Of a DNA stretch of 64,000 bases, positions 132 through 48,489 are shown piece by piece (position 1 is the stretch's first letter; each line of letters begins with the position of its first letter). The DNA comes from Candidatus Bathyarchaeia archaeon (lineage in GTDB: Archaea > Thermoproteota > Bathyarchaeia > Bathyarchaeales > Bathycorpusculaceae). The position numbers and the translations under genes were made by a program. The stretch spans positions 1 to 64,000 of the forward strand of contig JBEKSS010000011.1 in NCBI GenBank assembly GCA_049516875.1, given 5' to 3'. The notes below the pieces were generated by a model that was not told where the DNA came from, ran no database searches, and worked only from the letters and a program-made list of their open reading frames with translations.

Positions 132-231
132 GAATAATCACAACTTCTATTCAGAAAGGATCAATTACTTAGATATAAGATTTTTTAGCGCGCGCTGAAT
201 ATTAGTCGTCGTCACCGTCGTAGTCACTGTT

Positions 232-272
232 TGGGTTTAGGGTAAAGTTTACCCCAACCAACCACCAACCAA
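232..272. repeat. Imperfect hairpin repeat, copy 1 (core GGGTAAAGTTTACCC)
   Basis: Palindromic core at 240-255 with TTGG/CCAA-rich arms; related copies at 774-812 and 1389-1420. Confidence 0.7.
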
Positions 273-299
273 AATCTTAAGTGTCTTTCGTTTTGCATT

Positions 300-764
300 A
301 TGGTTGGAGTGTTGCCGCCCTTGGACAAGATTGAAGTCGTCCAAATAGGTGTTGTTAATCGAGATTCACCTGAGGAAGATGAGTTCGATAGAAGTCTTGT
401 TTCCAGAATAGTGCTCAAAAATGAATTTGCGGATGGATTGAAAGGTATTGAGGAATTCTCTCATGTTTTCATTATATACTGGCTGGACAGAATACCCGAC
501 TCTAAGAAGCGTCTGGTTGTCCCTGCAGGAAGTCAGAAACTCGCACAGCAGGTAGGAGTCTTCGCCACGAGAATGCCAATCCGCCCAAATCCTATTGGTT
601 TGAGCATGGTTGAACTTGTCAAGCATGAGAGGAATACTATCTGGGTGCGCGGTCTTGACGCCCTTGACGGTACCCCAGTCCTCGATATCAAGCCGTATCC
701 AGAATGTGTCAAAGGAAAATTCATTATTGCCGACAAATTCAAGGTCCCCAACTGGCTACGTTAA
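300..764 (+). CDS. tsaA: TrmO/TsaA (YaeB) family tRNA methyltransferase
   Basis: Motifs GLKGIEEFSH, GVFATR-P-RPNPIGLS, GLDALDGTPVLDIKPY. Confidence 0.9.
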   Translation: MVGVLPPLDKIEVVQIGVVNRDSPEEDEFDRSLVSRIVLKNEFADGLKGIEEFSHVFIIYWLDRIPDSKKRLVVPAGSQKLAQQVGVFATRMPIRPNPIGLSMVELVKHERNTIWVRGLDALDGTPVLDIKPYPECVKGKFIIADKFKVPNWLR

Positions 765-773
765 GCATAATCC

Positions 774-812
774 TTGGTTGGTGGATAAAACTTTACCCCA
801 AAACCAACTAAT
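774..812. repeat. Imperfect hairpin repeat, copy 2
   Basis: ttggttggtggataaaactttaccccaaaaccaa, between the two genes. Confidence 0.6.
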
Positions 813-852
813 CCAAATATAAGAATGTTGAGTATTTCAGTTGGAATAGCCT

Positions 853-1410
853 ATGGTGGTCAAGTGCACGGCTCTGGGGTTCGTGATATTAGCCCTTGGG
901 ATAATCTTCGTACTGGTTTCGCAGATGACCTTCAAGACGGAATATTATGCTTTGGTAGATACCAAGTCGTTTTCGGCTGGTCAACCGTTGGAGTTTTATT
1001 GGACATTTGAAGGAAACAAGAGCTATCGATTCGAAGTCAAAACATTGAATTGGACATACCCTTCACCGTACATTCACTGGATGTCCGTTTCAAACGACAC
1101 GCTTTATGCTGACCCACGCAACAATGTCATATCACCTCCTTACATGTTTTATTGGCAGGCGGGCTTCAATACAACAACTCAGAGAGTAGTCTGGTGGCAT
1201 TTTGGTGATAATAATAGCCGAGTAGTCGAAACTCCGGATGCAAGTGCACACGTGGACGTTTCAGAGCTTAGAGAGAAAGCTTCTCAGCCCACCGAATTAA
1301 TCTATGCGGGTGCCCCGCTCATCGCTATAGGAACCACTCTAACCGTGATAACCGAGCGTGTACGCCGTCATCGGGTGCGCCACGTAAGTTGGTTGGTTGG
1401 GTTGGGGTAA
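853..1410 (+). CDS. Hypothetical membrane protein (N- and C-terminal hydrophobic helices)
   Basis: 185-aa ORF with two hydrophobic segments. Confidence 0.6.
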   Translation: MVVKCTALGFVILALGIIFVLVSQMTFKTEYYALVDTKSFSAGQPLEFYWTFEGNKSYRFEVKTLNWTYPSPYIHWMSVSNDTLYADPRNNVISPPYMFYWQAGFNTTTQRVVWWHFGDNNSRVVETPDASAHVDVSELREKASQPTELIYAGAPLIAIGTTLTVITERVRRHRVRHVSWLVGLG

Positions 1411-1420
1411 AGTTTACCCC
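1389..1420. repeat. Imperfect hairpin repeat, copy 3 (right arm replaced by a CG run)
   Basis: ttggttggttgggttggggtaaagtttacccc immediately followed by cgcgcgcgct. Confidence 0.65.
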
Positions 1421-1430
1421 CGCGCGCGCT

Positions 1431-1559
1431 ATGTACAAAGAGATAATTGCGGTTGCCCAGAAAGAGGGCGATGTGACAACCGCTTTCCTTTTCATGGAGA
1501 TACTGAAGGACGAAGAAGGCCATCACGACACTTTCACCACTCTGCTTGAGCAAGTGTAA
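1431..1559 (+). pseudogene. 3' remnant of a ferritin/bacterioferritin-like gene
   Basis: MYKEIIAVAQKEGDVTTAFLFMEILKDEEGHHDTFTTLLEQV*: GDxTT and ExxH motifs of the last helices; begins right after the CG run at 1421-1429. Confidence 0.7.
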
Positions 1560-3804: not shown

Positions 3805-3857
3805 CTCGAAATTCGCGGTTAACACCCGAACCCAAAATCCTAAACCTACTCATTAAA

Positions 3858-4703
3858 ATGAAGAACAACGGACAAGCCGACACAAGCATCAAAACAGTCA
3901 ACAACATCCTAAAAATCATCAGCAAACACGCCGACCTAAACAACCCCGAAACAGTACAACAATTCATAGCCAACTTACAACGAACCAACACCTACAAAAA
4001 CAACCTATGCAAAACCTATCTAAAATATTGCAGACACTACGAAATCAAATGGACAAAACCAAAATACACACCAGACACCAAAATAATAAAAATACCAACA
4101 AAAGAAAAACTCGAAATGCTGATAGCCACCGCAGGAACAATCCTATCAATCAAACTTCAAATCAGCATGGAAACAGGACTAAGACCAATAGAACTATGCA
4201 ACTTAAAAGTTAAAGACATAGACCTAGAACAACGAACAATCTATCCAACCACAGCCAAACACGGAGCAAGCCGAACATTAAAAATATCCAACAGCCTACG
4301 AGACACAATCCAAAACCACATCAACAAAAACAAACTAAACCTGAATGACAAACTGTTCAAAGGAACACCAACCCAATACGGAAACAACTACCGAGAAATG
4401 AGAAACCGACTAGCCCGAAAACTACACGACCCATCAATACAAACCATCAGCCTCTACGCATTCAGACACTACTTCGCAACCACACTATACGCCAAAACCA
4501 AAGATATACTCCTAGTTAAACAACAAATGGGTCACAAACGAATAGAAACCACCATGATATACACACAACTCCAAAACTACAACGAAGACGAATGGACATG
4601 CAAAACAGCCACCAACGTAACCGAAGCAACCGCACTAATAGAAACAGGATTCGAGTACATACAAGACATAGACGGAATCAAACTATACCGAAAACGCAAA
4701 TAA
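3858..4703 (+). CDS. Tyrosine recombinase, C-terminal fragment (intC); frame is open back through attL
   Basis: TGLRPIE, TAKHG, YAFRH, MGH and TMIY motifs; no stop codon between 3783 and the ATG at 3858. Confidence 0.92.
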   Translation: MKNNGQADTSIKTVNNILKIISKHADLNNPETVQQFIANLQRTNTYKNNLCKTYLKYCRHYEIKWTKPKYTPDTKIIKIPTKEKLEMLIATAGTILSIKLQISMETGLRPIELCNLKVKDIDLEQRTIYPTTAKHGASRTLKISNSLRDTIQNHINKNKLNLNDKLFKGTPTQYGNNYREMRNRLARKLHDPSIQTISLYAFRHYFATTLYAKTKDILLVKQQMGHKRIETTMIYTQLQNYNEDEWTCKTATNVTEATALIETGFEYIQDIDGIKLYRKRK

Positions 4704-4785
4704 CCCCCCTTTCTAACGCGCGCTGTTCTTTGAATCTTAAATTGATTCTACAATTCTAAGCACACTTCAAATTCACAAACTTTAT

Positions 4786-6168
4786 TTGCTATTAGAACAG
4801 ATTTCAATTCAGTGCATCAGGCAAACTGTAGAACGTAAAGAGGATTCGAGGAATTTGACTGTTGAGCCAATAGAGTTCAAATGTCCGCTTTGTCACTCCT
4901 CTCTAGCAAGCGCTGATTATTATCGAGCAATTGAGGAACTCAAGAAGAAAATTTCAGAGACTTACGGTGAAGAACACAAAAAGGCTAAACAGGAATATGA
5001 ACAGAAGCTTCAGCAAATAAGCCAAGGTCATAAAAATGAAGTTGCTGACCTAAAGCGAGCATACGAGGAAACAAAAAAGACACTGAAGCAAGAAATGGAG
5101 GACACATATAGGCAACAACTTGCAGAGTTTAAGAAGACCTATGACAAAATCAACAAAGACAACAAAAGACATTTCGAGGTTCTAGAAAAGAAACTCAAAA
5201 CTGAAGGGAAAAAGGAACTTCAAGAAAAGGAAAAGCAGCTTAAAGAGCTTAGAAGAGAGCAAAATCGTTTGAAAAAACTCGCTTTTAATGAAGGCAAATC
5301 AAGAGCTGAGCTTGAAACAGCAAAGTTAAGGAATGACCTTACAGAACGAGACATACAGATAGAACGATTCAGGCGCGAGGCTGATGAACTGAGAAGGCAG
5401 TTATCGCAAAGCCAGGCAGAATTGAAAGGCGAGGCTGGAGAAATCGACCTTTACTCTAGACTCACTCAGGAATTTCAACAAGACTTTTTCACTCGGCAGA
5501 AAAGGGGCAAAGCTATGGGAGACATTATCCAACGAATCAGGACTGCCACAACGACACTGGAAACACCAATTGTGTATGACAACAAACAATCCGACAACGT
5601 TACTAGCAAAGACATAGAGAAAGCCAAGGGATACAAGGACGTTCATGCAACGGATTATGTTATTATAGTTTCAAGCAACTTGCCAAAAAAGGATGTTAAA
5701 AATGGATTGTTCGGTGAAAGAGACGGGATTTTGCTCTGCCATCCAACCATAGTGGTTGATATTGCCAAACAAATACGAAGAGCCATCATCGAAATTTCCA
5801 AACAATCAGAAAGTCGGATAGACCGTGAGACCAAAGAGTCGAAATTGTATGACTACATAAGAAGCCAAGAATTCGCAGGAACTGTGAAGAAATTGCATGA
5901 CATCTACCAAAAAATGGCTGACATACAGGATAGTGAAGAAAAAGCACATGGAAGATTATGGAGAGAGAGAAAGAAATTGCAGTTACAAATAAACGACACA
6001 TACAACGGAATTTCTAATGGAATAGACTGCATCATACAAGAGAGAATTCCAATGCAAGAACTTTTGGAAGAGCATGGAAAGGAAAAGGAGACAGAAGAAG
6101 CCCCCAGAGAAACAATCGAACCGCTCTTGATAAAGAGAAGGAAGAAGAAAAGGCAGAGCATAGCCTGA
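4786..6168 (+). CDS. DUF2130-like protein: zinc knuckle, coiled coil and PD-(D/E)XK-like domain (true start possibly TTG 4855)
   Basis: CPLC, long coiled coil, KGEAGE...GDII...YDNK pattern. Confidence 0.65.
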   Translation: MLLEQISIQCIRQTVERKEDSRNLTVEPIEFKCPLCHSSLASADYYRAIEELKKKISETYGEEHKKAKQEYEQKLQQISQGHKNEVADLKRAYEETKKTLKQEMEDTYRQQLAEFKKTYDKINKDNKRHFEVLEKKLKTEGKKELQEKEKQLKELRREQNRLKKLAFNEGKSRAELETAKLRNDLTERDIQIERFRREADELRRQLSQSQAELKGEAGEIDLYSRLTQEFQQDFFTRQKRGKAMGDIIQRIRTATTTLETPIVYDNKQSDNVTSKDIEKAKGYKDVHATDYVIIVSSNLPKKDVKNGLFGERDGILLCHPTIVVDIAKQIRRAIIEISKQSESRIDRETKESKLYDYIRSQEFAGTVKKLHDIYQKMADIQDSEEKAHGRLWRERKKLQLQINDTYNGISNGIDCIIQERIPMQELLEEHGKEKETEEAPRETIEPLLIKRRKKKRQSIA

Positions 6169-6538
6169 AGTACTCTTGACATGAAGAGCCATAGGATCAT
6201 CCCTTCCATTCAAAAAGCGCGCGCTTCTATCATAATAGGAGTGTACTTCTGTCCAGTTCCTCGGCTAACGCCTCGTCACCCGACAAAAACCAAAACAAAA
6301 ACCTAAACCACACACAACTTCAAACGCTCAACCTTGCACAAACGTGCAGCGCGCGCGCAAATAACCCTCTTTTTTCTATCGTCAACAGACCTAACGGCTC
6401 AAGTCGCTTCGCTCCTTTCGCCGTGCGCGCTAAAAGATATAAAAACGTAGACATGAAGAATAGCACGCGCTTTAAATAGAAACCAATTTAACTAAGCGCG
6501 CGCGCTAGTTTTTCAAGAAATTAAAGTGGGAATAGTCA

Positions 6539-8257
6539 ATGACAGAAATAACGACTCAGTCTCTCTTCGAGTTTAAAGGAATTGGCACACTACTGAAGTC
6601 TGGACGATTGAAGGTTCCGCCTAACCAGCGTGAATATTCATGGGAAGACAAACATATCAGCGATCTATTCCAAGATTTTCAAAAGGCAATAAGAACCAAG
6701 CAGTCTATTTATTTCTTAGGAACAATCGTAGTCTCAAAAGGTTCAAAAAACGTTCCAGAAGTCGTGGATGGACAACAGAGGCTAGCAACAACGACAATTT
6801 TGCTAGCTGCAATCAGGGATTATTTCTACTTGAAAGAACAAAAGACTTTGCAGAATGCCATTGACACTGAATATCTATTCAAAATTGACCGTGAACAAGT
6901 GGATACTGTGCCAAAGTTATCATTGAATACCGATGACAATGAATACTTCAAGAACCGAATAATTGCTTTGCCAAACAGCAAAGAACGATTATCGACAGAA
7001 CCAAAGAAAGAATCTCATAAAAGGATTGATTTTGCAGCTAATAAAGCAGAAGCTTTGATCCAGAACCTAGTGAAGGATCAGACTGATTTTAGGAATGTCA
7101 AAGATATTCTAAACGAATGGATTGACTTCGTTGAATCGAAGGCTACTATTATTCAATTGACTGTTCCTGATGAAGTGAATGCTTTCATGATGTTTGAAAC
7201 CCTGAATGACCGTGGACTTAAAACATCTCAAGCTGATTTAGTTAAGAATTTTCTTTTTCATGAAGCAGATGACCGAATACAGGAGGCTCAACAAAGATGG
7301 TCTAAAATGATTGCGATTCTGGAAACTTTGGGAATTGAAGAAATAGTCATGACATATCTGCGACACTTAGTAATAGCATTGTATGGACCAACACGTGAGA
7401 AAGAGATATTCGAGAAGATTCAGAAAAAGGTACAAGGAAGAGGTCAAGCAATCACGTTCTTAGATAACCTCGCTGATTACGCAGATAGTTATGCTGCGAT
7501 ACTCACTCCGACACATGCAAAATGGAACGATTATTTGCCTCAAATGCCTGAGACTATTGCGAATCTTAGGGATTTGAAAGTACAGCAAATACGTCCGTTA
7601 ATGCTCGCGGTTGCAAAACGCTTTGATCAGATAGAAACCCTCAATGCCTTTCGTTCGTTTATTTGTTGGACTGTCAGGTTCTTAATCGCTGGCGGTATGA
7701 GAGGTGGACAATTAGAAGACGCATATGGAGATAAAGCACATGATGTTTCCATAGGCAAATTTAAGAACACTAAGGAACTCCTTAGCAGCCTGATAGAAGT
7801 AATTCCTTCTGACGGCGAATTCAAATCAGCTTTTGCTACTGCAAGAGTATCACAGCATAATCTTGCTCGATATTACTTGCGCGCTATAGAACGCTATGTC
7901 ATGAAGGATGTTCAACCAGAAGTGGTTCCTGAGCAAGACACGAATTTTCTTAATTTGGAACATATCTTGCCTCAAGAACGCTCTGCTAATTGGTCGCATA
8001 TTGACTCTGAAACGGCAGACGCTTACACTAAGAGGATTGGAAATCTTACACTGTTAAAGTCAAAACTCAATGCTGATTTTGGAAATGCTCCATTTCAGAC
8101 TAAACGAACTGAATTTCAGAAATCACCACTAATGATAACTCAAATGGTCTATGACCTGACAAATGAACATACTCTCTGGGGACCAAATGATATAAACGAA
8201 AGACAAAGAAAACTTGCTGACTTAGCAGTTGAAACATGGCCACTTTCTCCAAAATAA
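6539..8257 (+). CDS. DUF262 + DUF1524 (GmrSD/SspE-like) modification-dependent nuclease
   Basis: QREYSW, VVDGQQRL, FETLNDRG, LEHILPQ, IGNLTLL motifs. Confidence 0.9.
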   Translation: MTEITTQSLFEFKGIGTLLKSGRLKVPPNQREYSWEDKHISDLFQDFQKAIRTKQSIYFLGTIVVSKGSKNVPEVVDGQQRLATTTILLAAIRDYFYLKEQKTLQNAIDTEYLFKIDREQVDTVPKLSLNTDDNEYFKNRIIALPNSKERLSTEPKKESHKRIDFAANKAEALIQNLVKDQTDFRNVKDILNEWIDFVESKATIIQLTVPDEVNAFMMFETLNDRGLKTSQADLVKNFLFHEADDRIQEAQQRWSKMIAILETLGIEEIVMTYLRHLVIALYGPTREKEIFEKIQKKVQGRGQAITFLDNLADYADSYAAILTPTHAKWNDYLPQMPETIANLRDLKVQQIRPLMLAVAKRFDQIETLNAFRSFICWTVRFLIAGGMRGGQLEDAYGDKAHDVSIGKFKNTKELLSSLIEVIPSDGEFKSAFATARVSQHNLARYYLRAIERYVMKDVQPEVVPEQDTNFLNLEHILPQERSANWSHIDSETADAYTKRIGNLTLLKSKLNADFGNAPFQTKRTEFQKSPLMITQMVYDLTNEHTLWGPNDINERQRKLADLAVETWPLSPK

Positions 8258-8387
8258 GAGGAAAACCTTGCTTACGAAGGTTCTTAGCCACCACAAATAA
8301 CTTAACAGTATCCTATAACCGCGCGCGCTAGAGTCTAGAAGAAGACGGCAACACCAACAGGAGAACCACCCGACTCAGAGCCAGACA

Positions 8388-39724: not shown

Positions 39725-42451
39725 CTATGGGTCGTTGCCTGGTGCGTTCATGTTGAAGCGCGCTACTGTTCCTGCTATGTCTTTCATGTTGCTGACGCGG
39801 TCTCCGTAGGGATCAACGCAGCCGTTTGCACCGTACACTCCGACCCATTTTGGATCTAGGACGGTTGAAGTTGGTGCTTTGGCGTTGAAGTGGACGACGA
39901 GGTATGCGATGTCTTTCATGTTGATTTTTCCGTCTGAAACGCCCACTGTTGAGCCGCTGACGTCGTACCACGGAGTGTCTTGCTTCCAGATAGTGTACGC
40001 ATGCTCACCTGGGTACAGCGCGTCATAGTACCAGCCTTTAACCCAGTAGTTGCACCAATGTCCGCCTGTTGGCGTGGCGACTGTGAAGCTTGGACAATCA
40101 TTGTAGTATATCTGCTGCAATTGGTTGTACAATGCCTGTCTTGCCATGTATCCGGGAGAGCCTAGACCAGCGCTGTCGTCAGTGAACAGGGCCTGGTCTA
40201 TCAGTGCGTCTTTCTGAGTGCTCCCACCGTTCGCAGCCGTGTAGCCCTGGAGGCTGGCAAAGAATCCATTACTATGCATGTATGCACGCACAAAGTCGTC
40301 GGCATCCGCAAAGTCTGCAAGCCAGCGGACGTCGAACATCGGCAGGTTCTGGGCATAAAAGTCGGTGATGAACGTGTTCCAGCTGATTGGTGCTAAGTTG
40401 ATGGTGAAGGTGCCTGCTGGACCAAACGGTCCAGTACCGAACATGGTCTGTAGTGTTGTGAAGAAGGTCTGTATCTCGGTGCATGCGGTCTGTCGCGCGC
40501 TGTTTCCGGTGTTGTATGGCAAAGTGAATGTGAAGCCCCATTGCCACAAGCTCTTAGTCACGCCGCCTACCGTGAAGGTCGCGCTCGTCAAGCAGGTGAA
40601 TGCTGCGAGGTAGTTCATGTTGTAACCGCTGGAGGCCCAGTTGTAGTAGTCGGGGTACAGGCCTTCTACGAACGGGTTGACCCTGTTCACCTGGGCCGCG
40701 CCAAACAAAGCATTAGTGATGTACTGCGTCTGGCTGAACGAGTAGGCAAAGGCTTTTCTAACGTTCGTATTGCTGAAGAAGTTGGTTGGAATTCCTGTGG
40801 GCAAACTCCCAGTTCCGATGTATGGGCTGGCGGGGTTTATAACGAAGGTGAACATGTTCGCATCCAGCATTAGCTCCGGCGCTACGCGCTGGATAGTCTT
40901 CACGCTTGGGACCAATGGCAGTCCGTTCGACCCAACCATGAGAGGCAGGGCAGACATCGGGATTATCGCAGTGTCGAGTGCGCCCGAGTTAAGTAAACTT
41001 GCCCTCGTAGCGTCAGATGCGATGTACGCTATGTTGACCGTGTCCACGTAGCCGTTGGTTGCCGTGGGGATGTTCGGTGGGCTAGCAGGATCGCCGCATG
41101 GGTTGCCGTAGGGATCCGTTGCTGGCCATCCTCTCCAGTAGCCTGGGTTCCTCTGCAGAATCACTTGTCCGGCTACGCTGTTAATCGTCTGCACGTAGTA
41201 CGGACCTGTGCCGCAGTACCTGTTCGGCTGAAGAGGTTGATCCACTGGATCTAGGCTCTTCTGGGCCGCACCGAATCGCGCCCAGTCCATCCACCAGTCC
41301 GGGTACACTAAGCATCCCGTTCCAGGATATTGCAGTGCTGGTGCCTTGCGTCCTGTGATACGAGTCGAGACTGCGGTGGGACTTTGCATGTACTTTGACG
41401 TGTCGTACAGGTTTCCGTTCCAAGCGCCCAGGTTGTTAATCGCGTAGGCGCTGCTTATGACGTCCATGAACGTGTTGGCAAGGTTTTGCTTGAAGGCGTT
41501 GTCTGGGAATCTGTCGCCCACGTTGATGATGAGGTTGTTGCCGCTGACTTGATATGCATCGTCAATCAGGTGAGCCAGGTCCATCAGGTTCGGGTGACCA
41601 GCCGCGCTTGGATTTGCTGATTCAGTATTAGCCCAGTAAAGGTGGTTTGTTGCGTCGTTGAAAAGTGGCAAGTCCATTATCCAGTTTGGAGCAAACGCGC
41701 AGTCCATAACTGAATAGTAGCTGAAGCTGTACTTGACATCGGCAATGGAGAACTGGCCCTGTTGGATGCCTTGGTAGTTGTAGAAGTATATTGGTGGGGT
41801 TGTGCGGATGTTGAACGTGTAGTATCCACGCCACAAGGTCAACGTGTAGGTTCCTGACGCGTAGGTCATGGCGTCAACGGTCCAGGTGCGCCATGTGTTC
41901 GCGACGAAGTCTTTTAGGTAAACGTTGTCGCCCGCGTCGAACACGAGGTCTGCGTTCTGGTCAACCCAGCCGGTGCCGAGGAATGGACCGGTTTCGGGTG
42001 AGTTTCCAGAGACGAAGGTGAAGGTTGCGCCTGTCGGACTATTACCATATGCTGTGGCGAGGTTATTGGTGGTGACCGTCATTACATACGAACTTCTGGT
42101 TGGAACGTTCGTGGCCAGCACCGGGTTGAAGTTGAAGTAGAGTTCTCCGTTATTTGGTGATAGAGACGGAAATGGGTTAACACTGCCCGCCCATTGTGTC
42201 CCTCCTTGCGGTAAAGTCCCGAACTCGATTAGGCCCTCGTAAACGTTGAACAGGAGTTCTCCACTGGCGGTGTCGTAAGCGACGCCTGGGTCAGCATCAA
42301 TCGGACCCCAACCGGTGTCGCCTACATAGTACGTGGTTGTGTTAATCGGCGGCTGGGCAGGAGGGACAGAATGGACTTTCGCTTGCGGAGCAACGATTGG
42401 AAGCAACATTATAGCCACAGCAAATATCGCAATCAAAAATAGTTTCTTCAT
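39725..42451 (-). CDS. Family 5 (peptide/nickel) ABC substrate-binding protein with C-terminal dockerin-like domain
   Basis: DPGVAYD...NVYEGL, CGTGPY, VRKAFAYSF, WLADFAD; ends DGKINMKDIAYL...NMKDIAG. Confidence 0.88.
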   Translation of the reverse strand: MKKLFLIAIFAVAIMLLPIVAPQAKVHSVPPAQPPINTTTYYVGDTGWGPIDADPGVAYDTASGELLFNVYEGLIEFGTLPQGGTQWAGSVNPFPSLSPNNGELYFNFNPVLATNVPTRSSYVMTVTTNNLATAYGNSPTGATFTFVSGNSPETGPFLGTGWVDQNADLVFDAGDNVYLKDFVANTWRTWTVDAMTYASGTYTLTLWRGYYTFNIRTTPPIYFYNYQGIQQGQFSIADVKYSFSYYSVMDCAFAPNWIMDLPLFNDATNHLYWANTESANPSAAGHPNLMDLAHLIDDAYQVSGNNLIINVGDRFPDNAFKQNLANTFMDVISSAYAINNLGAWNGNLYDTSKYMQSPTAVSTRITGRKAPALQYPGTGCLVYPDWWMDWARFGAAQKSLDPVDQPLQPNRYCGTGPYYVQTINSVAGQVILQRNPGYWRGWPATDPYGNPCGDPASPPNIPTATNGYVDTVNIAYIASDATRASLLNSGALDTAIIPMSALPLMVGSNGLPLVPSVKTIQRVAPELMLDANMFTFVINPASPYIGTGSLPTGIPTNFFSNTNVRKAFAYSFSQTQYITNALFGAAQVNRVNPFVEGLYPDYYNWASSGYNMNYLAAFTCLTSATFTVGGVTKSLWQWGFTFTLPYNTGNSARQTACTEIQTFFTTLQTMFGTGPFGPAGTFTINLAPISWNTFITDFYAQNLPMFDVRWLADFADADDFVRAYMHSNGFFASLQGYTAANGGSTQKDALIDQALFTDDSAGLGSPGYMARQALYNQLQQIYYNDCPSFTVATPTGGHWCNYWVKGWYYDALYPGEHAYTIWKQDTPWYDVSGSTVGVSDGKINMKDIAYLVVHFNAKAPTSTVLDPKWVGVYGANGCVDPYGDRVSNMKDIAGTVARFNMNAPGNDP

Positions 42452-42657
42452 TGTTTATTCTCCTTCTCTCTCCTTAATTTCGCTAGACAAGAGTGTGTTT
42501 TTCGAAGATATAGACTTTGTGAAACAATGTTACATATGAAATGGAACACGGCCTAGAACAAAAAAAACGAGAATTGCTGGGCATTCGGGTTTTTCAATTT
42601 CTGCGCGACCCTCGTCTCTTCCAGCTGGCTCCCAGCATGCTCATTGGCTAACCAGTT

Positions 42658-44374
42658 CTACTCGTGTTGGTTGAAGTAGTAGACGGCTATTGCTATGTCT
42701 TTCATGTCGACTACGCCATCGTTGTTCACGTCTGCGTTCGGGTCCCAGTTTGACTTGTTCGGCTTGGTCTGGAAGAGGCTGACAAGGTAGGCGATGTCCT
42801 TCATGTTCGTGATTCCGTCGTACACTCCGGGAGTCGTGCTGGACACGTCGCCTGGAACGCCCACGTGAACTGGAACGCTGCACGTGAAATTGTTGTTCGC
42901 CGTGTCTGTTTCTCCCGGAACAGGCCAAGCGTAAGCACTTAACGTGTAGTTGCCGTGGGCAAAGCCTGTTGTGTTCCACGTGAAAACAAGTTGCGCAGAA
43001 TTTCCGCTTGGAAGGGCAGTGACTTCTTGCTTTCCTATCGAGGTTCCGTTGACGTAGACCGTGACGTTGAAGGTTTCTTGGTAGCTGCCTTGGTCTGCTA
43101 CCGTGACGTTTATGCTCGCACTGAAGCCTTGAGCGACAACAGTCTTGGAAGACGCAACATTGGTGACGGCTACATCATCGCCTCCTGGCGCGCTCGCGCC
43201 AAAAGCATAAACATGCTGGGAGGAGCCTTCGTATACCACGCCGCCAACAACAGCAGGAGAAGAATACGGGCCACCAACCCCCCCTTCGGTTGCGTAGCTC
43301 CATATCAGCTCTCCCGTCGTGGCGTTCAAAGCAACAAACTTACCGTGGTCAAGAGTTAAGCCTATGTATACGACGCCGTCAGCAACAGCAGGAGAAGACA
43401 TAACGTCATCGCCGGTTCAAAGCATAAACCTTGTTGTCTTCTGAGCCTACGTAGACGACGCCGTCAACAACAGCAGGAGAAGACACCACAAAATCGCCGG
43501 TTGTGTAGTTCCATATCAGCTCTCCCGTCGTGGCGTTCAAAGCATAAACATTATCGTCGTATGAGCCTACGTAGACCACGCCACCAGTAACAGCAGGAGA
43601 AGACCACACCCCACCGTCGGTTGTGTAGCTCCATATCAGCAGTCCCGTCGTGGCGTTCAAAGCATAAACCGTGCCGCCGTTCGGATAGAATGAGCCTACG
43701 TAGACCACGCCACCAGTAACAGCAGGAGAAGAATACACCCCACCGTCGGTTGTGTAACTCCATATCAGCAGTCCCGTCGTGGCGTTCAAAGCATAAACGT
43801 TACCGTCGAATGAGCCTACGTAGACCACGCCACCAGTAACAGCAGGAGAAGAATACACCCCCGAACTGCCGGTTGTGTAGTTCCATATCAGCTCTCCCGT
43901 CGTGGCGTTCAAAGCATAAACGTTACCGTCGACTTGGCCTGATTCGTTAAAGGTCGAGCCTACGTAGACGACGCCGTCAGCAACAGCAGGAGAAGACTCC
44001 ACCGAACCGCCCGTTGTGTAGCTCCATATCAGCAGTCCCGTCGTGGCGTTCAAAGCATAAACCTTGTCGTCGTCACGGTTTGAGCCTATGTATAGGACAC
44101 CGCCAGCAACAGCAGGAGAAGAACTAACCGTACTGACGGTTGTGTATATCCAGAGAGTTTGGTTTGTGTTCGGCGCCGTTGAAGTGGAGTAGCCGGTGTG
44201 CGTCAGGTCATGGTGGAACATGGTCCACCAGTCCGTGGGATCTACGGTGGACTGTGACCCAAGAAGTCTGGGGCTGCCATGAGAATCGGCTGCTCCAGAG
44301 AGACTACTCAAGGGAAATACTGACACAAAGAACAACAAAACCAAGACGAAACTAACAACCGCTTTATTCCTCAT
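42658..44374 (-). pseudogene. Frameshifted PQQ-propeller, CARDB, dockerin gene (ORFs 43406-44374 and 42658-43401)
   Basis: About 35 nt missing from one repeat unit near 43415 compared with neighbouring units. Confidence 0.8.
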
Positions 44375-44410
44375 TTTCCCTACCCTTCCCCCATCTTCCC
44401 TAACGCGCGC

Positions 44411-44545
44411 TCATCAAACAGTGTAACCGACAACCTACTTAAGACTTGTGAGACAATGTTTCACGCTGGTTTACACCGGACGCTCTGGGCGTCTGCCGTC
44501 GGCCACGAATGCGCCATGAGGAACGGACACGGATGAAACGCGTTC
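44411..44545. repeat. Conserved upstream block, copy 2
   Basis: Matches 36013-36150. Confidence 0.85.
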
Positions 44546-44706
44546 ACGCACGAGCAAATATTATCATAAAGAGTGCTTCGACTCGTTGTTTGCCTGAATT
44601 GATGGGCGCGCGCGTTGCAACTTTCTTTTTCGTCTTGCTTGCTCTCAAAAATTCAAGCCTGAGCTTTAAATCAGTGGCAGCCAAACGTTCTTTTGAGGCT
44701 CAAAAG

Positions 44707-45018
44707 ATGCCAGAAATCGAAGAAAGAACGAAAACCTGCCACGAATGCGGGTTAGAGAGCATAGACGACTGCGAAACTACGAAAAAACACATTCCGGATG
44801 ACGAAAACTTTGCGCCTTGCGTTTACTGCGTCAGAAACCATTTAGAGCATACGCCGACGAACTGGCGTGCCGATTTCTATTCTGAGAGATGGTATCGAGA
44901 TGCTGACAAGGCTCCACACATAGACGACCCAGACCCGCACGAGAGGCAACTTTTACAAACTTTACACGAAATCGTCCAAAAAGAATATGCCAAGTTACCG
45001 GAGGTGACTACGAGTTGA
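44707..45018 (+). CDS. Small Cys-containing hypothetical protein
   Basis: CHEC...CVYC; overlaps the next ORF. Confidence 0.5.
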   Translation: MPEIEERTKTCHECGLESIDDCETTKKHIPDDENFAPCVYCVRNHLEHTPTNWRADFYSERWYRDADKAPHIDDPDPHERQLLQTLHEIVQKEYAKLPEVTTS

Positions 45019-45386
45019 CTTCCCCTTTAGATGCAAAAGTCATAAACGGAAAACTTGACAGCGGCAAAGTAAAGCCTGACAAACGTGCCAAGCCCCTCCC
45101 CTTAAGAGAGCCAGACAAGAATCCCCTCCCCCACGAAGAACCGAAAGAAGCCCCTGCAGAAATCGAGAAAGTCAAAGCTAGCAAGCCGAAGACTACGAAG
45201 AAAACCGACAAGAAGACGACGACGCCGAAAGAAATCAACTTCCCGCAGCCAGCGTTCATTAACGACTACGGCTTCTTGAAAATCAAGAATGGAATACTCG
45301 AAAAGATCGGCTGGCCGCTAAAGACGCATATCGACCTGCTCATCGATTTCAAAGATGGCGCGCTCGTCGTTAAGAAGAAACCTTAA
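45015..45386 (+). CDS. Hypothetical protein with AbrB/MazE-like C-terminus
   Basis: SD GGAGGTGA; INDYGFLKI...LEKIGW...FKDGALVV. Confidence 0.55.
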   Translation: MTSPLDAKVINGKLDSGKVKPDKRAKPLPLREPDKNPLPHEEPKEAPAEIEKVKASKPKTTKKTDKKTTTPKEINFPQPAFINDYGFLKIKNGILEKIGWPLKTHIDLLIDFKDGALVVKKKP

Positions 45387-45553
45387 ATTCCCCTCTTTTT
45401 TTATTCGATTTTGTGGTAAGATTGACTGTAAGTGTCTGAGTTTACACTGCCAGTTTAATCAAAAACCACTTATTAAAGACTTAGTTCAAGAAGGATCGAA
45501 CGCAAAGCTAGTAGTAGAGTCAGCAACGTGACCTTGTCAGATTGGCCCGGAGA

Positions 45554-45653
45554 AGCCCGGTGGAGGGAAGGATACCTTTCCGCCGACTGTAGTGGACAAG
45601 CATAGCGGGCTTTGGACCCGCCGACGAGAGTTCGAATCTCTCCCGGGCTACCA
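45554..45653 (+). tRNA. tRNA-Gln(UUG) with a 24-nt intron at position 10/11 (45564-45587); CCA encoded
   Basis: Acceptor AGCCCGG/CCGGGCT, anticodon arm GCGGG-CTTTGGA-CCCGC, T arm GAGAG-TTCGAAT-CTCTC; removing the intron restores the D arm. Confidence 0.9.
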
Positions 45654-45866
45654 CTTCTTAAGCGACAATTCATACTTTTTTTGAGGCTGGTTTTCACGGA
45701 TTTCTTTAAGCATCTGCTGTCGCAAGGCGGCGGTTAGCTGAGCCAATTGTTCCTGTTCTGGTTGGTTCTGTTCGATTACGGTTCTGTGCGGTTGCGTCAT
45801 TGCGTCGCGAGTCAGAATCTCGTCGGGGTTTAGGCCCCATGCCCGTATGATAAGCTTCTGCCACTG

Positions 45867-46289
45867 TTGGCAGCGGCAATCTTGCTGGGCATAATAATCG
45901 CGGTCGGACTAATCGCCCTGATAATACCGGGAATAATACTGGCTCTAATGTTCTCGCTGACGATCTCAGCTATCATGATCGAGAACGTGGGAGCTATCGA
46001 AGGAATGTCCAGAAGCAGAGCGCTGGTGAGTCACGGATGGCTCAAGACATTCGCTATACTCCTCATAATAGGCATAATACTGGCTATAGTCTCATACATT
46101 GCAGGTTTAATCGCGAGCCCCCTCGGAAGCTACAGTTGGATTTTGAGCAGCATCATATCGGCCTTGATAGCACCTATACTGCCCATAACCCTAACAGTCC
46201 ACTACTACTCAATGCGCGCAAAAGAACAATCAGCAACACCAACACAGACTCCATCGCAAGACACCGTCAAGACTAACCCCACAATTTAG
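45867..46289 (+). CDS. Membrane protein, probably 5'-truncated
   Basis: LIIPGII...IMIEN-G-IEGMSRS-LV pattern. Confidence 0.55.
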   Translation: MAAAILLGIIIAVGLIALIIPGIILALMFSLTISAIMIENVGAIEGMSRSRALVSHGWLKTFAILLIIGIILAIVSYIAGLIASPLGSYSWILSSIISALIAPILPITLTVHYYSMRAKEQSATPTQTPSQDTVKTNPTI

Positions 46290-46428
46290 CCCATCATACA
46301 CGACCAACACCTGTCAAGTCTACTCTTTCAAACCCCAGCAAACTGCATCGCAGACCTTTTTTTCTTGAGGAAGAAAACACCCATTCCACAACATAGTAGT
46401 GCGCGTTTATCTGTCATTCCAGTTGTCG

Positions 46429-46881
46429 CTATTCTATTTCCTTGGTTTTTGGAAAGAGTTCCTTTATCTTCTTTATGAATTTGTTTTCAAAGTCAAGAGC
46501 TTCCATCGTGTCAGTTATTTCTTCCACATCCTCGTCAGAAACGTACTTGGCGGGTTTACCGGTTAGTTCGTCGAGAGCGAGCCCACATGAGTATATTATG
46601 GTACCTTCTTCTGACGGCGAAATCACCACGTGCACTCCTGATCGTTGTGCTGCTTTGACGTACTGTTGCAGACTGAACGGATACAGTAGGGCCCTCAACG
46701 TCAAGGGCACTAGCGCGCCTTCTCCGGCAAGCACTGTTGTAATTCCCTCTTCGGTTCTTTCTGTTTTCATGACCTTCAAGCCCATTTCCTTGAAAGCTTT
46801 CTGGCAGGCCAAAGCCACATCATCAACCTTGGCATCTGGCACTAGAAGTCTCCTTTCCAAACAAACAGCTTCATGACTCAT
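46429..46881 (-). CDS. Hypothetical protein
   Basis: 150-aa ATG-started ORF. Confidence 0.65.
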   Translation of the reverse strand: MSHEAVCLERRLLVPDAKVDDVALACQKAFKEMGLKVMKTERTEEGITTVLAGEGALVPLTLRALLYPFSLQQYVKAAQRSGVHVVISPSEEGTIIYSCGLALDELTGKPAKYVSDEDVEEITDTMEALDFENKFIKKIKELFPKTKEIE

Positions 46882-47375
46882 TCAAGAAAGCACCACAGTC
46901 AATGACCTCTCCCCCTTCTTATTACGTTTTCTAGTCATGATTCGCTAACGCGAGGACGCGCTCTGGCAACCGCCAGTTCCGCTCTGGAGTTTGAAGCGCA
47001 GTTGCCTACTTTCTTCTAAGGAGAACCAGGATAGCATGATCGTTTGAGTTACAGTAGAACCCGACAGAACAATCCTCTATAAAACAGTTCCAGAAGACGT
47101 ATTTGCCGTGACGTTCCAAGGTTAGGGCGGCGCATGCGGATTCTTCATCTCAGTGATGGCACCACGCTCACCCCAAGCAGGGGGAGATGGGAAAAACAAA
47201 AGCAATTGTCGCCATCATTCTCACAGATCCGCATGCGCTACGCTATCATGGGCATGAGTCTCTGCAGCTATTGTTCGCATGCTTGATTCAACTCTTCAGT
47301 CTTGCACAAGTAGTGGTCACAAGGAGTAGAACGTGCGTAACGGTAGCTCGATAATGTGACAAAAAAAAGAGGCGG

Positions 47376-47876
47376 TTATGGGTAGTGCTTGTTGTATTTC
47401 ATTACTGTCAAGACGATGTCTATCACGTTTGTCCTGAGGTCGGCGTTGAGGTCGGTGTATGGATTCCAGCGTGGCTCAAACGGAACGCCATTGAACGCGT
47501 TTACGAGTGCGGCAATGTCTTTCATGTCGATTTTTCTGTCACCGTTTATGTCCGCCGTCAACAGGTCCGTTGACACCGCGTTGATTAATGGATATTCGTC
47601 TTGGTTGAGTCCGTCAGCTGTAACATTGTACGGTGTATCGCCTAACACGTCGCCGTTGCTGTCTTTGCCACCCTGTGCAGTGACGTAGTCGCTCCAATAG
47701 TTTCCACCACTCTCGGGAGCAGTACCGTTGTTCCAAGTGTCCATAGCGTTTACCGCAAGCACTAGCGGCGTGTCGCCTATGATGTTGTTGTGGTATATCG
47801 CGTTGCCTTGGCTGAAGACATCAACTATGCATATTTGATTTAGGCCGCTAGTTATGTTGTTCTGAGCAAAGTTGTT
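47376..47876 (-). pseudogene. 5'-truncated NosD-dockerin gene
   Basis: Frame reads ANNFAQNNITS...IYHNN...GGNYWSDY...ADINGDRKIDMKDI; cut at (CG)5 47877-47886 with an in-frame TAA just beyond. Confidence 0.8.
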
Positions 47877-48110
47877 CGCGCGCGCGATTTAAGCTTTTTT
47901 GGAACATTGTTCTATGCTTGCGAACGCGCGCCACTCCCAGAAAACAAAATCAACTCAGAACCGTTCTCCCACCCATGCAACAACCCTAAATCCCCCCTTC
48001 CAAAGCCCCAAACCTCACCCCACCAAACTCAAACACACCAAAACCACCACCAGAAACCACCTGCACAAACAATCTAACAACTCACAACAACACCCAACAA
48101 GCCAGTTTTG

Positions 48111-48296
48111 GGCCTCAGAAAAATCACGGATTGAGTACTCAAACACAATGCCAACTCTAACATGAGAAACTCAACGCCCGAAACTTTTGACACTCAAAGA
48201 CCTCGCAGAATTGAGTAAAAAAAGCTTCAAACCAACATGCTTCAACAATGTTTTGACACTCAAAGAAATCACGGATTGAGTACTCAAAAGCAAGGC
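48111..48296 (+). repeat. Palindrome-rich non-coding repeat (about 190 bp), copy 1
   Basis: 23-bp direct repeats at 48121-48143 and 48266-48288 containing TTGAGTACTCAA; inverted copy at 56176-56363. Confidence 0.88.
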
Positions 48297-48489
48297 TTTT
48301 CTCACCAAGATGTCCACCAATTCACCAACGTCGGCCCTGAGAAGAAAATGTCTGCGTCTGCGTGGATAAAACGGCCCTAGGCGCAACGCCGTTTCTGCGC
48401 GCGGGCAAGGTTTGATACCCGTCTGTCGCATAGTAGGCAATGAACAGGGCTGGCAACGTGGGCTAAGTCATAAAAAAAAAGAAGAGGTT

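What the first reader, a model, noticed from the sequence alone, without database searches (positions are those of the whole stretch)
187..48403. (CG)4-5 runs punctuate accessory genes and mark truncation breakpoints: candidate cassette-shuffling signal
Seen: alternating CG runs of 8 nt or more at 188, 1421, 6217, 6349, 6496, 8320, 14727, 18121, 23633, 24387, 31209, 36256, 36759, 37610, 38143, 38854, 44606, 47877 and 60322. Shorter runs lie at 4717, 9608, 23607, 24365, 36164, 44404, 47925, 48397 and 57528. Most are intergenic, often as AGCGCGCGCT in AT-rich DNA, and none of 8 nt or more was seen in the core block 50-57 kb. A rough independence estimate at about 46% GC predicts around one such run per 64 kb. 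They bracket each cargo gene of the integrated element and follow both integrase genes. Two genes are cut exactly at a run: the ferritin remnant (1431) and the NosD-dockerin remnant (47876). Inference: a short palindromic crossover or repair core, possibly Z-DNA-prone, through which single genes are captured and swapped, analogous to HIP1 in cyanobacteria or a minimal integron site.
Basis: partly seen in the sequence, partly recalled or inferred. Interest (0 to 1): 0.82.

Follow-up and report, generated by a model that had tools for sequence, protein, structure and literature searches.

The report
GC-repeat tracts at archaeal DNA joints
In this peat archaeon and its close relatives, a short GCGCGCGC tract is far too common and sits where stretches of DNA of different ancestry meet, which points to an undescribed way of breaking and rejoining DNA.

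Summary
All 19 alternating-CG runs of 8 nt or more are at the stated places, against about one expected. This is a genome-wide trait of a Bathyarchaeia genus. GCGCGCGC is the most over-represented octamer in the genome, with 447 sites against 23-31 expected. Of 416 runs, 331 are intergenic. The flanks are unique, so it is not a MITE.

Measured against the closest congener, run density is 0.28 per kb in core intergenic DNA and 0.92 per kb in accessory intergenic DNA; core genes are at about chance level.

Where one flank of a run is conserved up to the run, homology stops at the run in 42 of 46 cases. For control positions the figure is 159 of 358. About one fifth of runs abut truncated genes.

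Contigs from independent samples span the junctions I checked, so those are not assembly artefacts.

The integron-like reading is only partly supported. I found no attC-like fold, no matching integrase pattern, and the edges of the two large insertions do not lie at runs. C5 methylase, Ku, the LigD polymerase and PolX do not track run abundance. The enzyme remains unknown.

This scan has noted the same phenomenon on two other Bathyarchaeia genomes.

The parts
188..195 (.). (GC)4 run at the end of a block conserved in relatives (1-187)
   Evidence: Homology with G002 and G004 ends at 187, with G003 at 195; G021 has CGCGCGC at the same place. A contig from run X4 diverges right after 187 (table 7).
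196..1420 (.). G000-specific segment between two runs (TrmO-like gene 300-764 and an ORF of unknown family)
   Evidence: In run X6 depth is about 9.6 over 668-1334, against 157-168 on either side (table 2).
1421..1429 (.). C(GC)4 run at the truncation point of the ferritin gene
   Evidence: Homology to G004, G003 and G021 starts at 1430/1431. Spanned by X3 record 1 (209-1740) and X6 record 24 (193-1770). One X6 contig diverges right after 1431.
1430..1559 (+). 3' remnant of a ferritin-like gene
   Evidence: Pfam Ferritin, profile positions 95-138 of 142. The gene is intact in G004 and G021.
3805..10776 (.). Integrated element between porA and porB (integrase, DUF2130, GmrSD). Its genes are separated by runs at 4717, 6217, 6349, 6496, 8320 and 9608, but its own ends are not at runs.
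   Evidence: An element-free allele (joint 3780->10779, 17 shared letters) occurs in X5 and X6.
6217..6224 (.). (GC)4 run, intergenic, inside the element
6349..6358 (.). (GC)5 run, intergenic, inside the element
6496..6505 (.). (GC)5 run, 34 nt upstream of the GmrSD start
8320..8328 (.). C(GC)4 run after the GmrSD stop
14727..14735 (.). C(GC)4 run inside the Yip1-domain ORF (one of the few coding runs)
   Evidence: No run of 8 nt or more is listed near the corresponding place in G004.
18121..18128 (.). (GC)4 run at a deletion junction between the stop of the saccharopine-dehydrogenase-like gene and the thiolase leader
   Evidence: More distant relatives have a 150-180-nt spacer without a run; G002 has 1.1 kb with a gene; G004 has that gene truncated at a run. 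Spanned by X3, X4 and X5 contigs.
22316..45453 (.). 23-kb G000-specific island beside a tRNA gene (NosD/PQQ/CARDB surface proteins). It holds 9 runs of 8 nt or more, but its ends are not at such runs.
23633..23642 (.). (GC)5 run; pairs with the 7-mer at 23607
24387..24395 (.). C(GC)4 run; pairs with the 6-mer at 24365
31209..31216 (.). (GC)4 run, intergenic
36256..36263 (.). (GC)4 run, intergenic
36759..36766 (.). (GC)4 run, intergenic
37610..37619 (.). (GC)5 run at the end of a segment shared with G001, G002 and G004 (86-90% identity)
   Evidence: matches end at 37593-37606; homology to G002 stops 3 nt before the run.
38143..38150 (.). (GC)4 run in a weakly supported ORF
38854..38861 (.). (GC)4 run, intergenic
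44606..44614 (.). (GC)4G run in a weakly supported ORF
47877..47886 (.). (CG)5 run at the truncation point of a NosD-like/dockerin gene remnant
47376..47876 (-). Remnant of a beta-helix/dockerin surface-protein gene; the frame is open up to the run
   Evidence: translation; Dockerin_1
60322..60329 (.). (CG)4 run inside the gvpL/F-DnaJ gene (coding)

Best explanation
The (GC)4-5 tract marks, and probably takes part in, a DNA breakage-and-rejoining process that operates in this Bathyarchaeia genus and in one other run-rich genus of its family.

Shown:
- The tract is a free-standing 8-10-nt palindrome with unique flanks.
- It is concentrated in variable DNA.
- It lies at the very nucleotide where homology with a congener ends.
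- It delimits gene-sized accessory segments.
- It abuts truncated genes and deletion junctions.
- Some tracts are kept at the same place in two species while the DNA on one side differs.
- Other tracts sit at joints where relatives have continuous sequence without any tract.

Inferred: DNA is broken at or beside a tract, and the tract-bearing end is joined to another, often arbitrary, end. New joints can also acquire a tract, either by duplication of the tract at a staggered break or by addition at the joint. Tracts would then multiply along with rearrangements and pile up in islands. The enzyme is not identified.
For: Over-representation and form:
- 447 GCGCGCGC sites against 23-31 expected; it is the top octamer.
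- Lengths cut off sharply after 10 nt.
- Only 34 of 832 flanks resemble any other flank.

Lineage: AGCGCGCGCT occurs 29-115 times in all 4 congeners and 63 times in G021, against 0-11 in the other 35 relatives searched.

Variable-genome bias, measured against G002:
- Intergenic density is 28 runs per 100.6 kb between core genes, 25 per 48.5 kb at core/accessory borders, 30 per 32.6 kb between accessory genes, and 242 per 258 kb outside synteny chains.
- 24 of 484 core intergenic regions hold a run, against 26 of 123 accessory ones (p=1.6e-7).
- Core genes hold 9 runs per 877 kb.
- The direction is the same against G003.

Breakpoints:
- Of 1000 alignment ends, 17 have a run starting 0-5 nt beyond the end. 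Random intergenic placement gives a mean of 2.8 and a maximum of 8 in 200 repeats.
- Seen from G002, the figure is 23 of 993, against a mean of 3.1 and a maximum of 11.
- With a control matched for distance to gene ends, the figure is 12 against a mean of 3.6 and a maximum of 9.
- Of 46 intergenic runs with a flank homologous up to the run, homology breaks there in 42. For controls it breaks in 159 of 358 (p=3e-10).
- Of the 11 in-chain cases among the 42 alignment ends at runs listed, 10 are indels or replacements of 300 nt or more.

Re-use of a tract: G002 has a run of 6 nt or more on its side of the junction in 9 of 47 cases, against 3 of 165 for controls. At C15:38460 and C4:149252, both flanks of one G000 run map to two different run-bearing junctions in G002.

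New tracts:
- 5 segments bounded by runs at both ends in G000 have G002 homologues with no run at one or both ends.
- The spacer between the saccharopine-dehydrogenase-like gene and the thiolase gene has no run in 5 metagenome loci, G001, G003 or G021. The deleted allele in G000, L238, L239 and L240 has (GC)4 at the joint.

Truncations: the G002 counterpart of the junction lies inside a gene in 10 of 47 cases, against 12 of 165 for controls.

Population level: contigs from other samples span runs 1421 and 18121. One X6 contig diverges right after 1431. One X3 contig carries a GC run directly before position 1641, a different breakpoint.
Against: - Most structural breakpoints have no run. Among 110 clean indels of 500 nt or more, 14 have a run at one edge, 0 have one at both edges, and 96 have none at an edge; 10 short alleles carry a run of 6 nt or more. 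Only 9 of 92 gap edges against G003 have a run within 30 nt.
- The two large insertions in the window do not end at runs.
- No enzyme tracks the trait. PF00145 was not found in G000 or G021. Ku is in G000 but not G021, and occurs in run-poor genomes. The LigD polymerase was not found in G001, G003 or G021. No PolX match above the cut-off was found in the run-rich genomes.
- The idea that two pre-existing GCGC sites are joined fits one locus but is not seen in general (2 of 40 against 8 of 164).
- Events were not polarised except at one locus.
- Gene calls come from a crude caller of my own.
- 'Core' and 'accessory' are defined against single congeners at about 84% identity, and only 1.90 of 2.33 Mb of G002 was available.
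- BLAST ends can be pulled towards an 8-nt difference in poorly conserved spacers.
Confidence: 0.55

Rival explanations
1. The tract is a functional signal carried by transferable gene units, for example a terminator or insulator, a protein-binding site, or a DNA-uptake or recognition tag. Homology would end at it only because such units are exchanged by other mechanisms and the signal sits at their edge.
For: Runs lie 3-100 nt after stops and about 50-120 nt upstream of starts of single genes. At loci conserved on both sides, the run is retained in G002 in 6 of 21 cases (8 nt or more) or 11 of 21 (6 nt or more), against 16 and 44 of 352 for controls. HIP1 is now discussed as an uptake signal (abstract of PMC13756078).
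Against: Homology ends within 0-5 nt of the run, even hundreds of nt from the nearest gene (C1:47785). Runs abut truncated genes and deletion joints. No hairpin is predicted. Density is similar in convergent, divergent and tandem spacers, which does not fit a pure promoter or terminator element.
Confidence: 0.2
2. The tract is the preferred target of a transposase- or casposase-like integrase that duplicates it on insertion, so every inserted segment becomes flanked by two copies.
For: The modal length is fixed at 8 nt. Runs cluster in islands at gene-sized spacing. Some segments lie between two runs (window 188-1429). Some cases read one junction in one genome against two junctions in the other.
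Against: 0 of 110 clean indels have runs at both edges, and the empty allele carries a run in only 10. Segment ends fall at places where G002 has continuous sequence without a run. Deletion joints also carry runs. No candidate enzyme was sought beyond the integrase family.
Confidence: 0.1
3. The tract is a HIP1-like iterated palindrome, created and kept by methylation-linked biased mismatch repair or by selection for chromosome structure, with no role in rearrangement.
For: It is an octameric GC-rich palindrome, 15-19 times over-represented and specific to one lineage, as HIP1 is in cyanobacteria (abstracts of PMC5861425 and PMC4390886).
Against: No C5 methylase was found. Core genes are at chance level, whereas HIP1 is abundant and conserved inside ORFs (abstract of PMC5861425). 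Only 21 of 326 intergenic runs have both 500-nt flanks collinear in G002, against 352 of 1301 controls. There is a strong breakpoint association. GCGC and CGCG are not enriched as tetramers.
Confidence: 0.07
4. The runs are an assembly or binning artefact: false joins at a short repeat in metagenome-assembled genomes.
For: All the genomes are MAGs, and several relatives' contigs end near the variable spot upstream of porA.
Against: Logan contigs from other samples span runs 1421, 6217-8320 and 18121 without any difference (X3 records 1, 3 and 8; X4 record 16; X5 record 22; X6 record 24). The trait is present in 5 species of the genus, including a 1.44-Mb contig of G003. An 8-10-nt repeat is shorter than assembler word sizes (general knowledge).
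Confidence: 0.01

Closest known systems
HIP1 (GCGATCGC), the highly iterated palindrome of cyanobacteria
   Same: An octameric GC-rich palindrome, hyper-abundant and restricted to one lineage. From recall, not from any call: it was first noticed at the borders of a deletion.
   Different: HIP1 is abundant and conserved inside and between ORFs, is periodically spaced, and is tied to the methylases DmtA and DmtC (abstracts of PMC5861425, PMC4390886 and PMC13756078). Here the tract is 80% intergenic, at chance level in core genes, concentrated in variable DNA and at homology breakpoints, and no C5 methylase was found.
Integron gene cassettes with attC sites
   Same: Single accessory genes in arrays, each bounded by a recurring site; homology between genomes ends at that site.
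   Different: By established knowledge, attC sites are 57-141-nt imperfect palindromes that fold as single strands and need an IntI integrase. Here the site is 8-10 nt with unique flanks and no predicted fold. The tyrosine recombinase family shows no link to run abundance. Runs also mark deletions and truncated genes.
Non-B (Z-DNA-prone) alternating CG tracts as fragile sites
   Same: An alternating CG sequence, with breaks and deletions ending at the tract. The A/T preference at the tract border would suit a B-Z junction (recalled).
   Different: By recalled knowledge, fragile tracts are usually lost or shortened by the deletions they provoke and are not over-represented. Here the tract is kept whole at the joint, has a fixed modal length of 8, and is 15-19 times enriched.
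Filler or N-nucleotide addition at end-joining junctions (NHEJ polymerases)
   Same: Extra nucleotides at joints between unrelated ends. G000 encodes Ku, a LigD-type polymerase and a phosphoesterase.
   Different: By recalled knowledge, known filler is short and variable in sequence. Here it would be one fixed palindrome. Three of the six run-rich genomes showed no Ku or LigD-polymerase match.
Mobile GC clusters of yeast mitochondrial DNA (recalled, not checked in a paper here)
   Same: GC-rich palindromic elements scattered in AT-rich spacers, flanked by short A/T-rich repeats, and acting as hot spots of deletion and recombination.
   Different: Those clusters are 30-50 nt long with conserved sequence families. 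Here the tract is only 8-10 nt, in an archaeal chromosome.

Membership tests
HIP1-type highly iterated palindrome | Palindromic octamer over-represented by an order of magnitude genome-wide | tested here: met
   447 sites against 23-31 expected; it is the top octamer.
HIP1-type highly iterated palindrome | Abundant and conserved within ORFs as well as between them | tested here: not met
   81 of 416 runs are coding. Core genes hold 9 per 877 kb, about chance level. Only 21 of 326 intergenic runs lie in loci collinear with G002.
HIP1-type highly iterated palindrome | A cognate DNA methyltransferase recognising the motif or its core | tested here: inconclusive
   PF00145 was not found in G000 or G021. 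Other methylase families and methylation itself were not examined.
Integron cassette / attC | A recombination site of 57-141 nt that folds as an imperfect hairpin | tested here: not met
   0 of 15 run sites with 30-nt flanks fold better than shuffles (z from -1.49 to +1.68). Flank composition is random beyond +/-2 nt.
Integron cassette / attC | An integron integrase next to the array, co-distributed with it | tested here: not met
   The window's integrase family occurs in 36 of 41 genomes of the family, whatever their run abundance. IntI-specific features were not examined.
MITE / REP-type repeat element | A conserved element sequence of tens of nt around the core | tested here: not met
   Only 34 of 832 sixty-nt flanks resemble any other flank.
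Transposon target-site duplication | The same short repeat at both edges of the inserted segment, and a single copy at the empty site | tested here: not met
   0 of 110 clean indels of 500 nt or more have runs at both edges. 10 short alleles carry a run of 6 nt or more.
Z-DNA-prone fragile site | An alternating purine-pyrimidine (CG)n tract | tested here: met
   Shown directly by the sequence.
Z-DNA-prone fragile site | Forms Z-DNA or provokes breaks in vivo | not testable with these tools
   Only the association with breakpoints is shown.
NHEJ filler DNA | Depends on the Ku and LigD-type end-joining machinery | tested here: not met
   Ku was not found in run-rich G021 (98% complete). The LigD polymerase was not found in G001, G003 or G021. 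Both are present in run-poor G010 and G020.
DNA uptake sequence | Enriched in core genome and conserved genes; linked to a competence apparatus | tested here: not met
   The enrichment is in variable DNA, not in the core. Competence genes were not examined.

The most novel reading that the evidence does not exclude
This lineage has an end-joining or recombination activity that writes or duplicates one fixed palindrome, (GC)4, at the joints it makes. Every rearrangement would then leave a tract that is itself the next break-and-join site. That would make it a self-propagating junction sequence which assembles accessory genes into cassette-like islands without an integron, transposon ends or long homology.
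Probability: 0.3. Interest if true: 0.9.

Novelty: new variant of a known kind. Interest (0 to 1): 0.78.

Why it matters
Bathyarchaeia are abundant and uncultured, and how their genomes gain and lose genes is unknown. A fixed 8-nt palindrome that sits at the exact borders of variable DNA gives a sequence handle on that process. It can be used to map rearrangement joints in metagenomes, to delimit accessory gene units, and to search for the enzyme responsible. If the tract is produced or used by a dedicated activity, that would be a new mode of illegitimate or site-preferring recombination in archaea. It would also be a counterpart to HIP1, whose function has been debated for three decades, but with a different and more readable genomic signature.

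Tried and rejected
- MITE or longer repeat element: rejected.
- Hairpin or attC-like structure: rejected.
- C5 methylase link: not found.
- Ku, LigD polymerase and PolX as determinants: their distribution does not follow run abundance.
- The window's integrase family and the nucleotidyltransferase-like gene at the island border, 21211-22326 (22 of 41 genomes, not G021): no correlation.
- Cut at two GCGC sites, fill in, then blunt joining: fits the spacer between the saccharopine-dehydrogenase-like gene and the thiolase gene when L245 or L241 serves as the ancestor proxy. However, the closest relatives lack GCGC on the right side, and there is no general excess of lone GCGC at G002 counterpart junctions.
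- The run as a target-site duplication: rejected.
- Relaxed Pfam scan of 12 unannotated ORFs: no match above any curated cut-off, and no second integrase.
- Literature: searches for GCGCGCGC with 'archaea', for GCGCGCGC with 'intergenic' and 'palindrom', and for Bathyarchae* with 'palindrom' and 'intergenic' listed nothing that describes this tract. The integron-in-Archaea papers were seen only as a listing. A term search of Elhai 2015 found no 'GCGCGC'.
- The metagenome scan gave only 10 loci, one of them from the same species, so strain-level polarisation was not possible.
- Parts of the 20-kb stretch without contig cover in X5 are not interpreted.

Full report
**1.

None of 8 nt or more lies between 47886 and 60322. 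The window is 47.3% G+C, so about one such run is expected by chance.

**2. It is a trait of the genome and the lineage, not of the window**

The window is C11:1-64000 of a 2.43-Mb assembly in 20 contigs.

- Genome-wide there are 416 runs of 8 nt or more. Their lengths are 8:240, 9:112, 10:56, 11:5, and three longer. That is a bump at 8 and a sharp cut-off after 10.
- GCGCGCGC has the highest z-score of all octamers: 894 on both strands (447 sites) against 46.6-61.3 expected under Markov orders 0-3. AGCGCGCGCT has 98 sites against about 2 expected. The tetramers GCGC and CGCG are not enriched.
- Most runs are (GC)4 (212). The 9-mers (112) are (GC)4 plus a chance neighbouring C or G, and 48 runs are (GC)5.
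- Beyond A at -1 and T at +1, the flanks are random. For exact (GC)4 and (GC)5 runs, A is at -1 in 71% and T at +1 in 63%, and the two sides are statistically independent (119 with both, 116.7 expected).
- Only 34 of 832 sixty-nt flanks resemble any other flank, so the tract stands alone and is not part of a MITE.
- Record titles of relatives found through the aCPSF1/FttA gene name the organism as a Bathyarchaeia archaeon of peat and soil.
- AGCGCGCGCT occurs 98 times in G000, 29-115 times in all four congeners, 63 times in one other genus of the family (G021), 5-11 times in five further genomes, and 0-2 times in the other 30 relatives searched. The reversed control word gives 0-7.

**3. Where the runs lie**

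My own crude ORF caller gives 2310 genes and 80.7% coding sequence. By that measure, 331 of 416 runs are intergenic, 81 coding and 4 on a boundary. They occur in tandem, divergent and convergent spacers alike, at 0.71, 0.63 and 0.95 per kb.

Runs are clustered. Spacings of 400-1600 nt are over-represented, and 20-kb bins hold from 0 to 13 runs. On the run-richest contig, C14, runs bracket single genes or small groups. They typically sit 50-120 nt upstream of a start codon and 3-100 nt after a stop codon.

**4. Core versus accessory DNA**

I compared G000 with 800 kb of G003. I also compared it with 1.90 of the 2.33 Mb of the closest congener, G002. That comparison gave 503 alignments covering 1.07 Mb at a mean identity of 83.6%, in synteny chains covering 1.41 Mb.

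Run density against G002:

| Class | Runs | Length | Per kb |
|---|---|---|---|
| Intergenic, between two conserved genes | 28 | 100.6 kb | 0.28 |
| Intergenic, at core/accessory borders | 25 | 48.5 kb | 0.52 |
| Intergenic, between two non-conserved genes | 30 | 32.6 kb | 0.92 |
| Intergenic, outside chains | 242 | 258 kb | 0.94 |
| Core genes | 9 | 877 kb | 0.010 |
| Accessory genes | 12 | 245 kb | 0.049 |

- 24 of 484 core intergenic regions hold a run, against 26 of 123 accessory ones (p=1.6e-7).
- The density in core genes is about chance level.
- The contrast holds across the three spacer orientations; by spacer length it holds below 300 nt and narrows above (0.54 against 0.33 per kb).
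- Against G003 the direction is the same: 9 runs per 35.2 kb against 26 per 25.4 kb.
- Core intergenic DNA is still about 20 times above chance, so the tract is not confined to accessory DNA.

**5. Runs sit at homology breakpoints**

- Of 1000 alignment ends in G000, 17 have a run starting 0-5 nt beyond the end. Random intergenic placement gives a mean of 2.8 and a maximum of 8 in 200 repeats. Over the range -12 to +20 nt, the count is 61 against 15.1.
- Seen from G002 (370 runs in 1.90 Mb, 309 intergenic), 23 of 993 ends have such a run, against a mean of 3.1 and a maximum of 11.
- A control that keeps each run's distance to its nearest gene end still gives 12 against 3.6 (maximum 9) for 0-5 nt. 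Over -12 to +20 nt it gives 49 against 19.3.
- Taken flank by flank: of 46 intergenic runs with at least one flank homologous to G002 up to 6 nt or less from the run, homology continues across the run in 4 and breaks in 42. For 358 control positions it continues in 199 and breaks in 159 (p=3e-10).
- The 42 alignment ends at runs listed show high identity up to the run and unrelated sequence immediately after it.
- Of the 11 cases that lie within synteny chains, 10 are indels or replacements of 300 nt or more.

**6. Old tracts are re-used and new tracts appear**

Re-use:
- G002 has a run of 6 nt or more on its side of the junction in 9 of 47 cases, against 3 of 165 for controls (p=9e-5). Examples are C1:47785 and C14:20167, where the flank and run are the same and different DNA follows.
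- At C4:149252 and C15:38460, both flanks of one G000 run map to two separate run-bearing junctions in G002. This is the pattern expected from an exchange at the tract.

New tracts:
- Five alignments are bounded by runs at both ends in G000, while their G002 homologues (83-97% identical) have no run at one or both ends.
- At C14:50467, C15:690 and C13:30961, the two flanks of a run are fragments of sequences that run on without a tract in G002.
- The G002 counterpart of the junction lies inside a gene in 10 of 47 cases, against 12 of 165 for controls. So about a fifth of assessable runs abut truncated genes.

**7. Loci in the window**

(a) *Runs 188 and 1421.* Homology to relatives ends at 187 or 195 and resumes at 1430 or 1431. 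G021 has a 7-mer run at the first place and an intact ferritin gene. G000 has a different 1.2-kb segment and only the last third of ferritin, starting right after the run.

(b) *Run 18121.*
- More distant relatives have a spacer of 150-180 nt without a run between the saccharopine-dehydrogenase-like gene and the thiolase gene. These are five metagenome loci, G001 and G003; G021 also has no run there.
- G002 has 1.1 kb containing a small gene followed by GCGCGCG.
- G004 has that gene truncated exactly at a 9-nt run.
- G000, the same-species contig L238, and L239 and L240 have the spacer deleted, with (GC)4 at the joint.

(c) *Run 47877.* The beta-helix/dockerin reading frame is open up to the run and is stopped just beyond it.

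(d) *The counter-examples.* The integrated element 3805-10776 lies between porA and porB and carries an integrase, a DUF2130 gene and a GmrSD gene. The 23-kb island 22316-45453 lies beside a tRNA gene. Neither ends at a run, although runs separate the genes inside them.

**8. Not an assembly artefact, and variable in natural populations**

Twenty public runs from 16 studies hold window 14000-22300. I laid Logan contigs of four of them (X3-X6, none flagged as a possible source) on window 1-20000.

- They span run 1421 (X3 record 1, 209-1740; X6 record 24, 193-1770).
- They span the runs inside the element (X3 record 3, 3768-10592).
- They span run 18121 (X3 record 8, X4 record 16, X5 record 22).
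- X5 and X6 contain the element-free allele (joint 3780->10779, 17 shared letters; depth 212 against about 9 in X6).
- One X6 contig diverges right after 1431, at the edge of the run.
- One X3 contig joins unrelated sequence ending in GCGCGC directly to position 1641. With the next two window letters this makes (GC)4 at a different breakpoint.

**9. What it is not**

- No hairpin is predicted: 0 of 15 run sites with 30-nt flanks have z below -2.
- It is not a target-site duplication. Among 110 clean indels of 500 nt or more (48 longer in G000, 62 longer in G002), a run lies at one edge of the longer allele in 14, at both edges in 0, and at neither in 96. The short allele carries a run of 6 nt or more in 10. 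Several of the one-edge cases have a run just inside a 10-40-nt direct repeat that flanks the insertion.
- It is not HIP1-like in distribution. HIP1 is conserved in and between ORFs and tied to methylases (abstracts of PMC5861425 and PMC4390886). Here only 21 of 326 intergenic runs have both 500-nt flanks collinear in G002, against 352 of 1301 controls. Within those 21, a run of 8 nt or more is retained in 6, and one of 6 nt or more in 11.
- I found no PF00145 methylase in G000 or G021.

**10. The enzyme is unknown**

- Ku is present in G000 but was not found in run-rich G021, and it is present in run-poor G010, G020, G042 and G058.
- The LigD-type polymerase is present in G000, G002 and G004. 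It was not found in G001, G003 or G021, and it is present in run-poor G010, G020 and G040.
- No PolX palm match above the cut-off was found in any run-rich genome.
- The integrase family of the window is in 36 of 41 genomes.
- The nucleotidyltransferase-like gene at the island border is in 22 of 41 genomes, but not in G021.
- One idea was a cut before two GCGC sites, followed by fill-in and blunt joining, which would give exactly 8 nt. It fits the spacer between the saccharopine-dehydrogenase-like gene and the thiolase gene if L245 or L241 stands for the ancestor. It is not supported in general (2 of 40 against 8 of 164).

**11. Reading**

The best-supported statement is that the tract is tied to DNA breakage and rejoining.
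- It is found at the exact joints between DNA of different ancestry.
- It is re-used as a joint.
- It appears at new joints.
- It therefore accumulates in variable DNA.

Whether the tract causes breaks (a fragile or cleaved site), is duplicated at staggered breaks, or is added at joints remains open.

It is not supported as an integron-like, integrase-driven system.

Caveats:
- The gene calls are crude.
- Comparators are single congeners at about 84% identity.
- Only one locus is polarised.
- Most breakpoints carry no run.

**12. Earlier notes of this scan**

Two earlier notes on other Bathyarchaeia genomes reached similar readings: 'CG-repeat filler at deletion scars' and 'short GC-alternating tracts at rearrangement junctions'. 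I saw them after I had formed my own reading. They are not independent evidence.

**13. Literature**

My literature searches listed no description of this tract.

Noticed in passing
window 245-275 and 1390-1420 (inverted); also C9:87905-87950, C14:940-978, C14:7640-7690 and several G002 junctions: A near-palindromic, promoter-like element, GGGGTAAAGTTT(T)A(T)CCCC, flanked by GGTTGG/CCAACC-type repeats. It recurs in intergenic DNA, often right beside a GC run. It may be a bidirectional BRE/TATA module or a second small repeat family.
   Followed up: no
window 57598-64000: The dnaK-plus-gas-vesicle gene block is 92% identical to G021:C30 (a different genus) but had no match in the four congeners. 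This suggests recent transfer between genera, or a binning error. Window 1-264 is likewise 96% identical to G021:C22.
   Followed up: partly
window 3805-10776: An integrated element (tyrosine integrase, DUF2130, GmrSD type IV restriction enzyme) splits porA from porB. The element-free allele, with a 17-nt shared repeat, dominates in run X6 (depth 212 against about 9) and is the only form seen in X5.
   Followed up: partly
window 771-809 and 10566-10644: Short sequences that match many scattered places in G021, G002 and G004 at 82-100% identity. Contigs from other samples break at 774 and 805. They look like small dispersed repeats distinct from the GC run.
   Followed up: no
window 11847-12287; G000:C9:92481-93886: A stand-alone LigD-type 3'-phosphoesterase gene lies in the window. 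Ku and a LigD-type primase-polymerase lie side by side on contig C9. Together they form a split archaeal end-joining kit, present in only some genomes of the family.
   Followed up: partly
window 22316-45453: A 23-kb strain-specific island beside a partial tRNA match (45586-45642). It is filled with large NosD, PQQ beta-propeller, CARDB and laminin-G surface proteins and small ORFs of no known family.
   Followed up: no
window 23603-23672 and 24357-24425: Where two runs lie about 20 nt apart, they are predicted to pair with each other as a GC stem of 7-8 base pairs. Only a few such pairs occur genome-wide (5 spacings under 50 nt).
   Followed up: no
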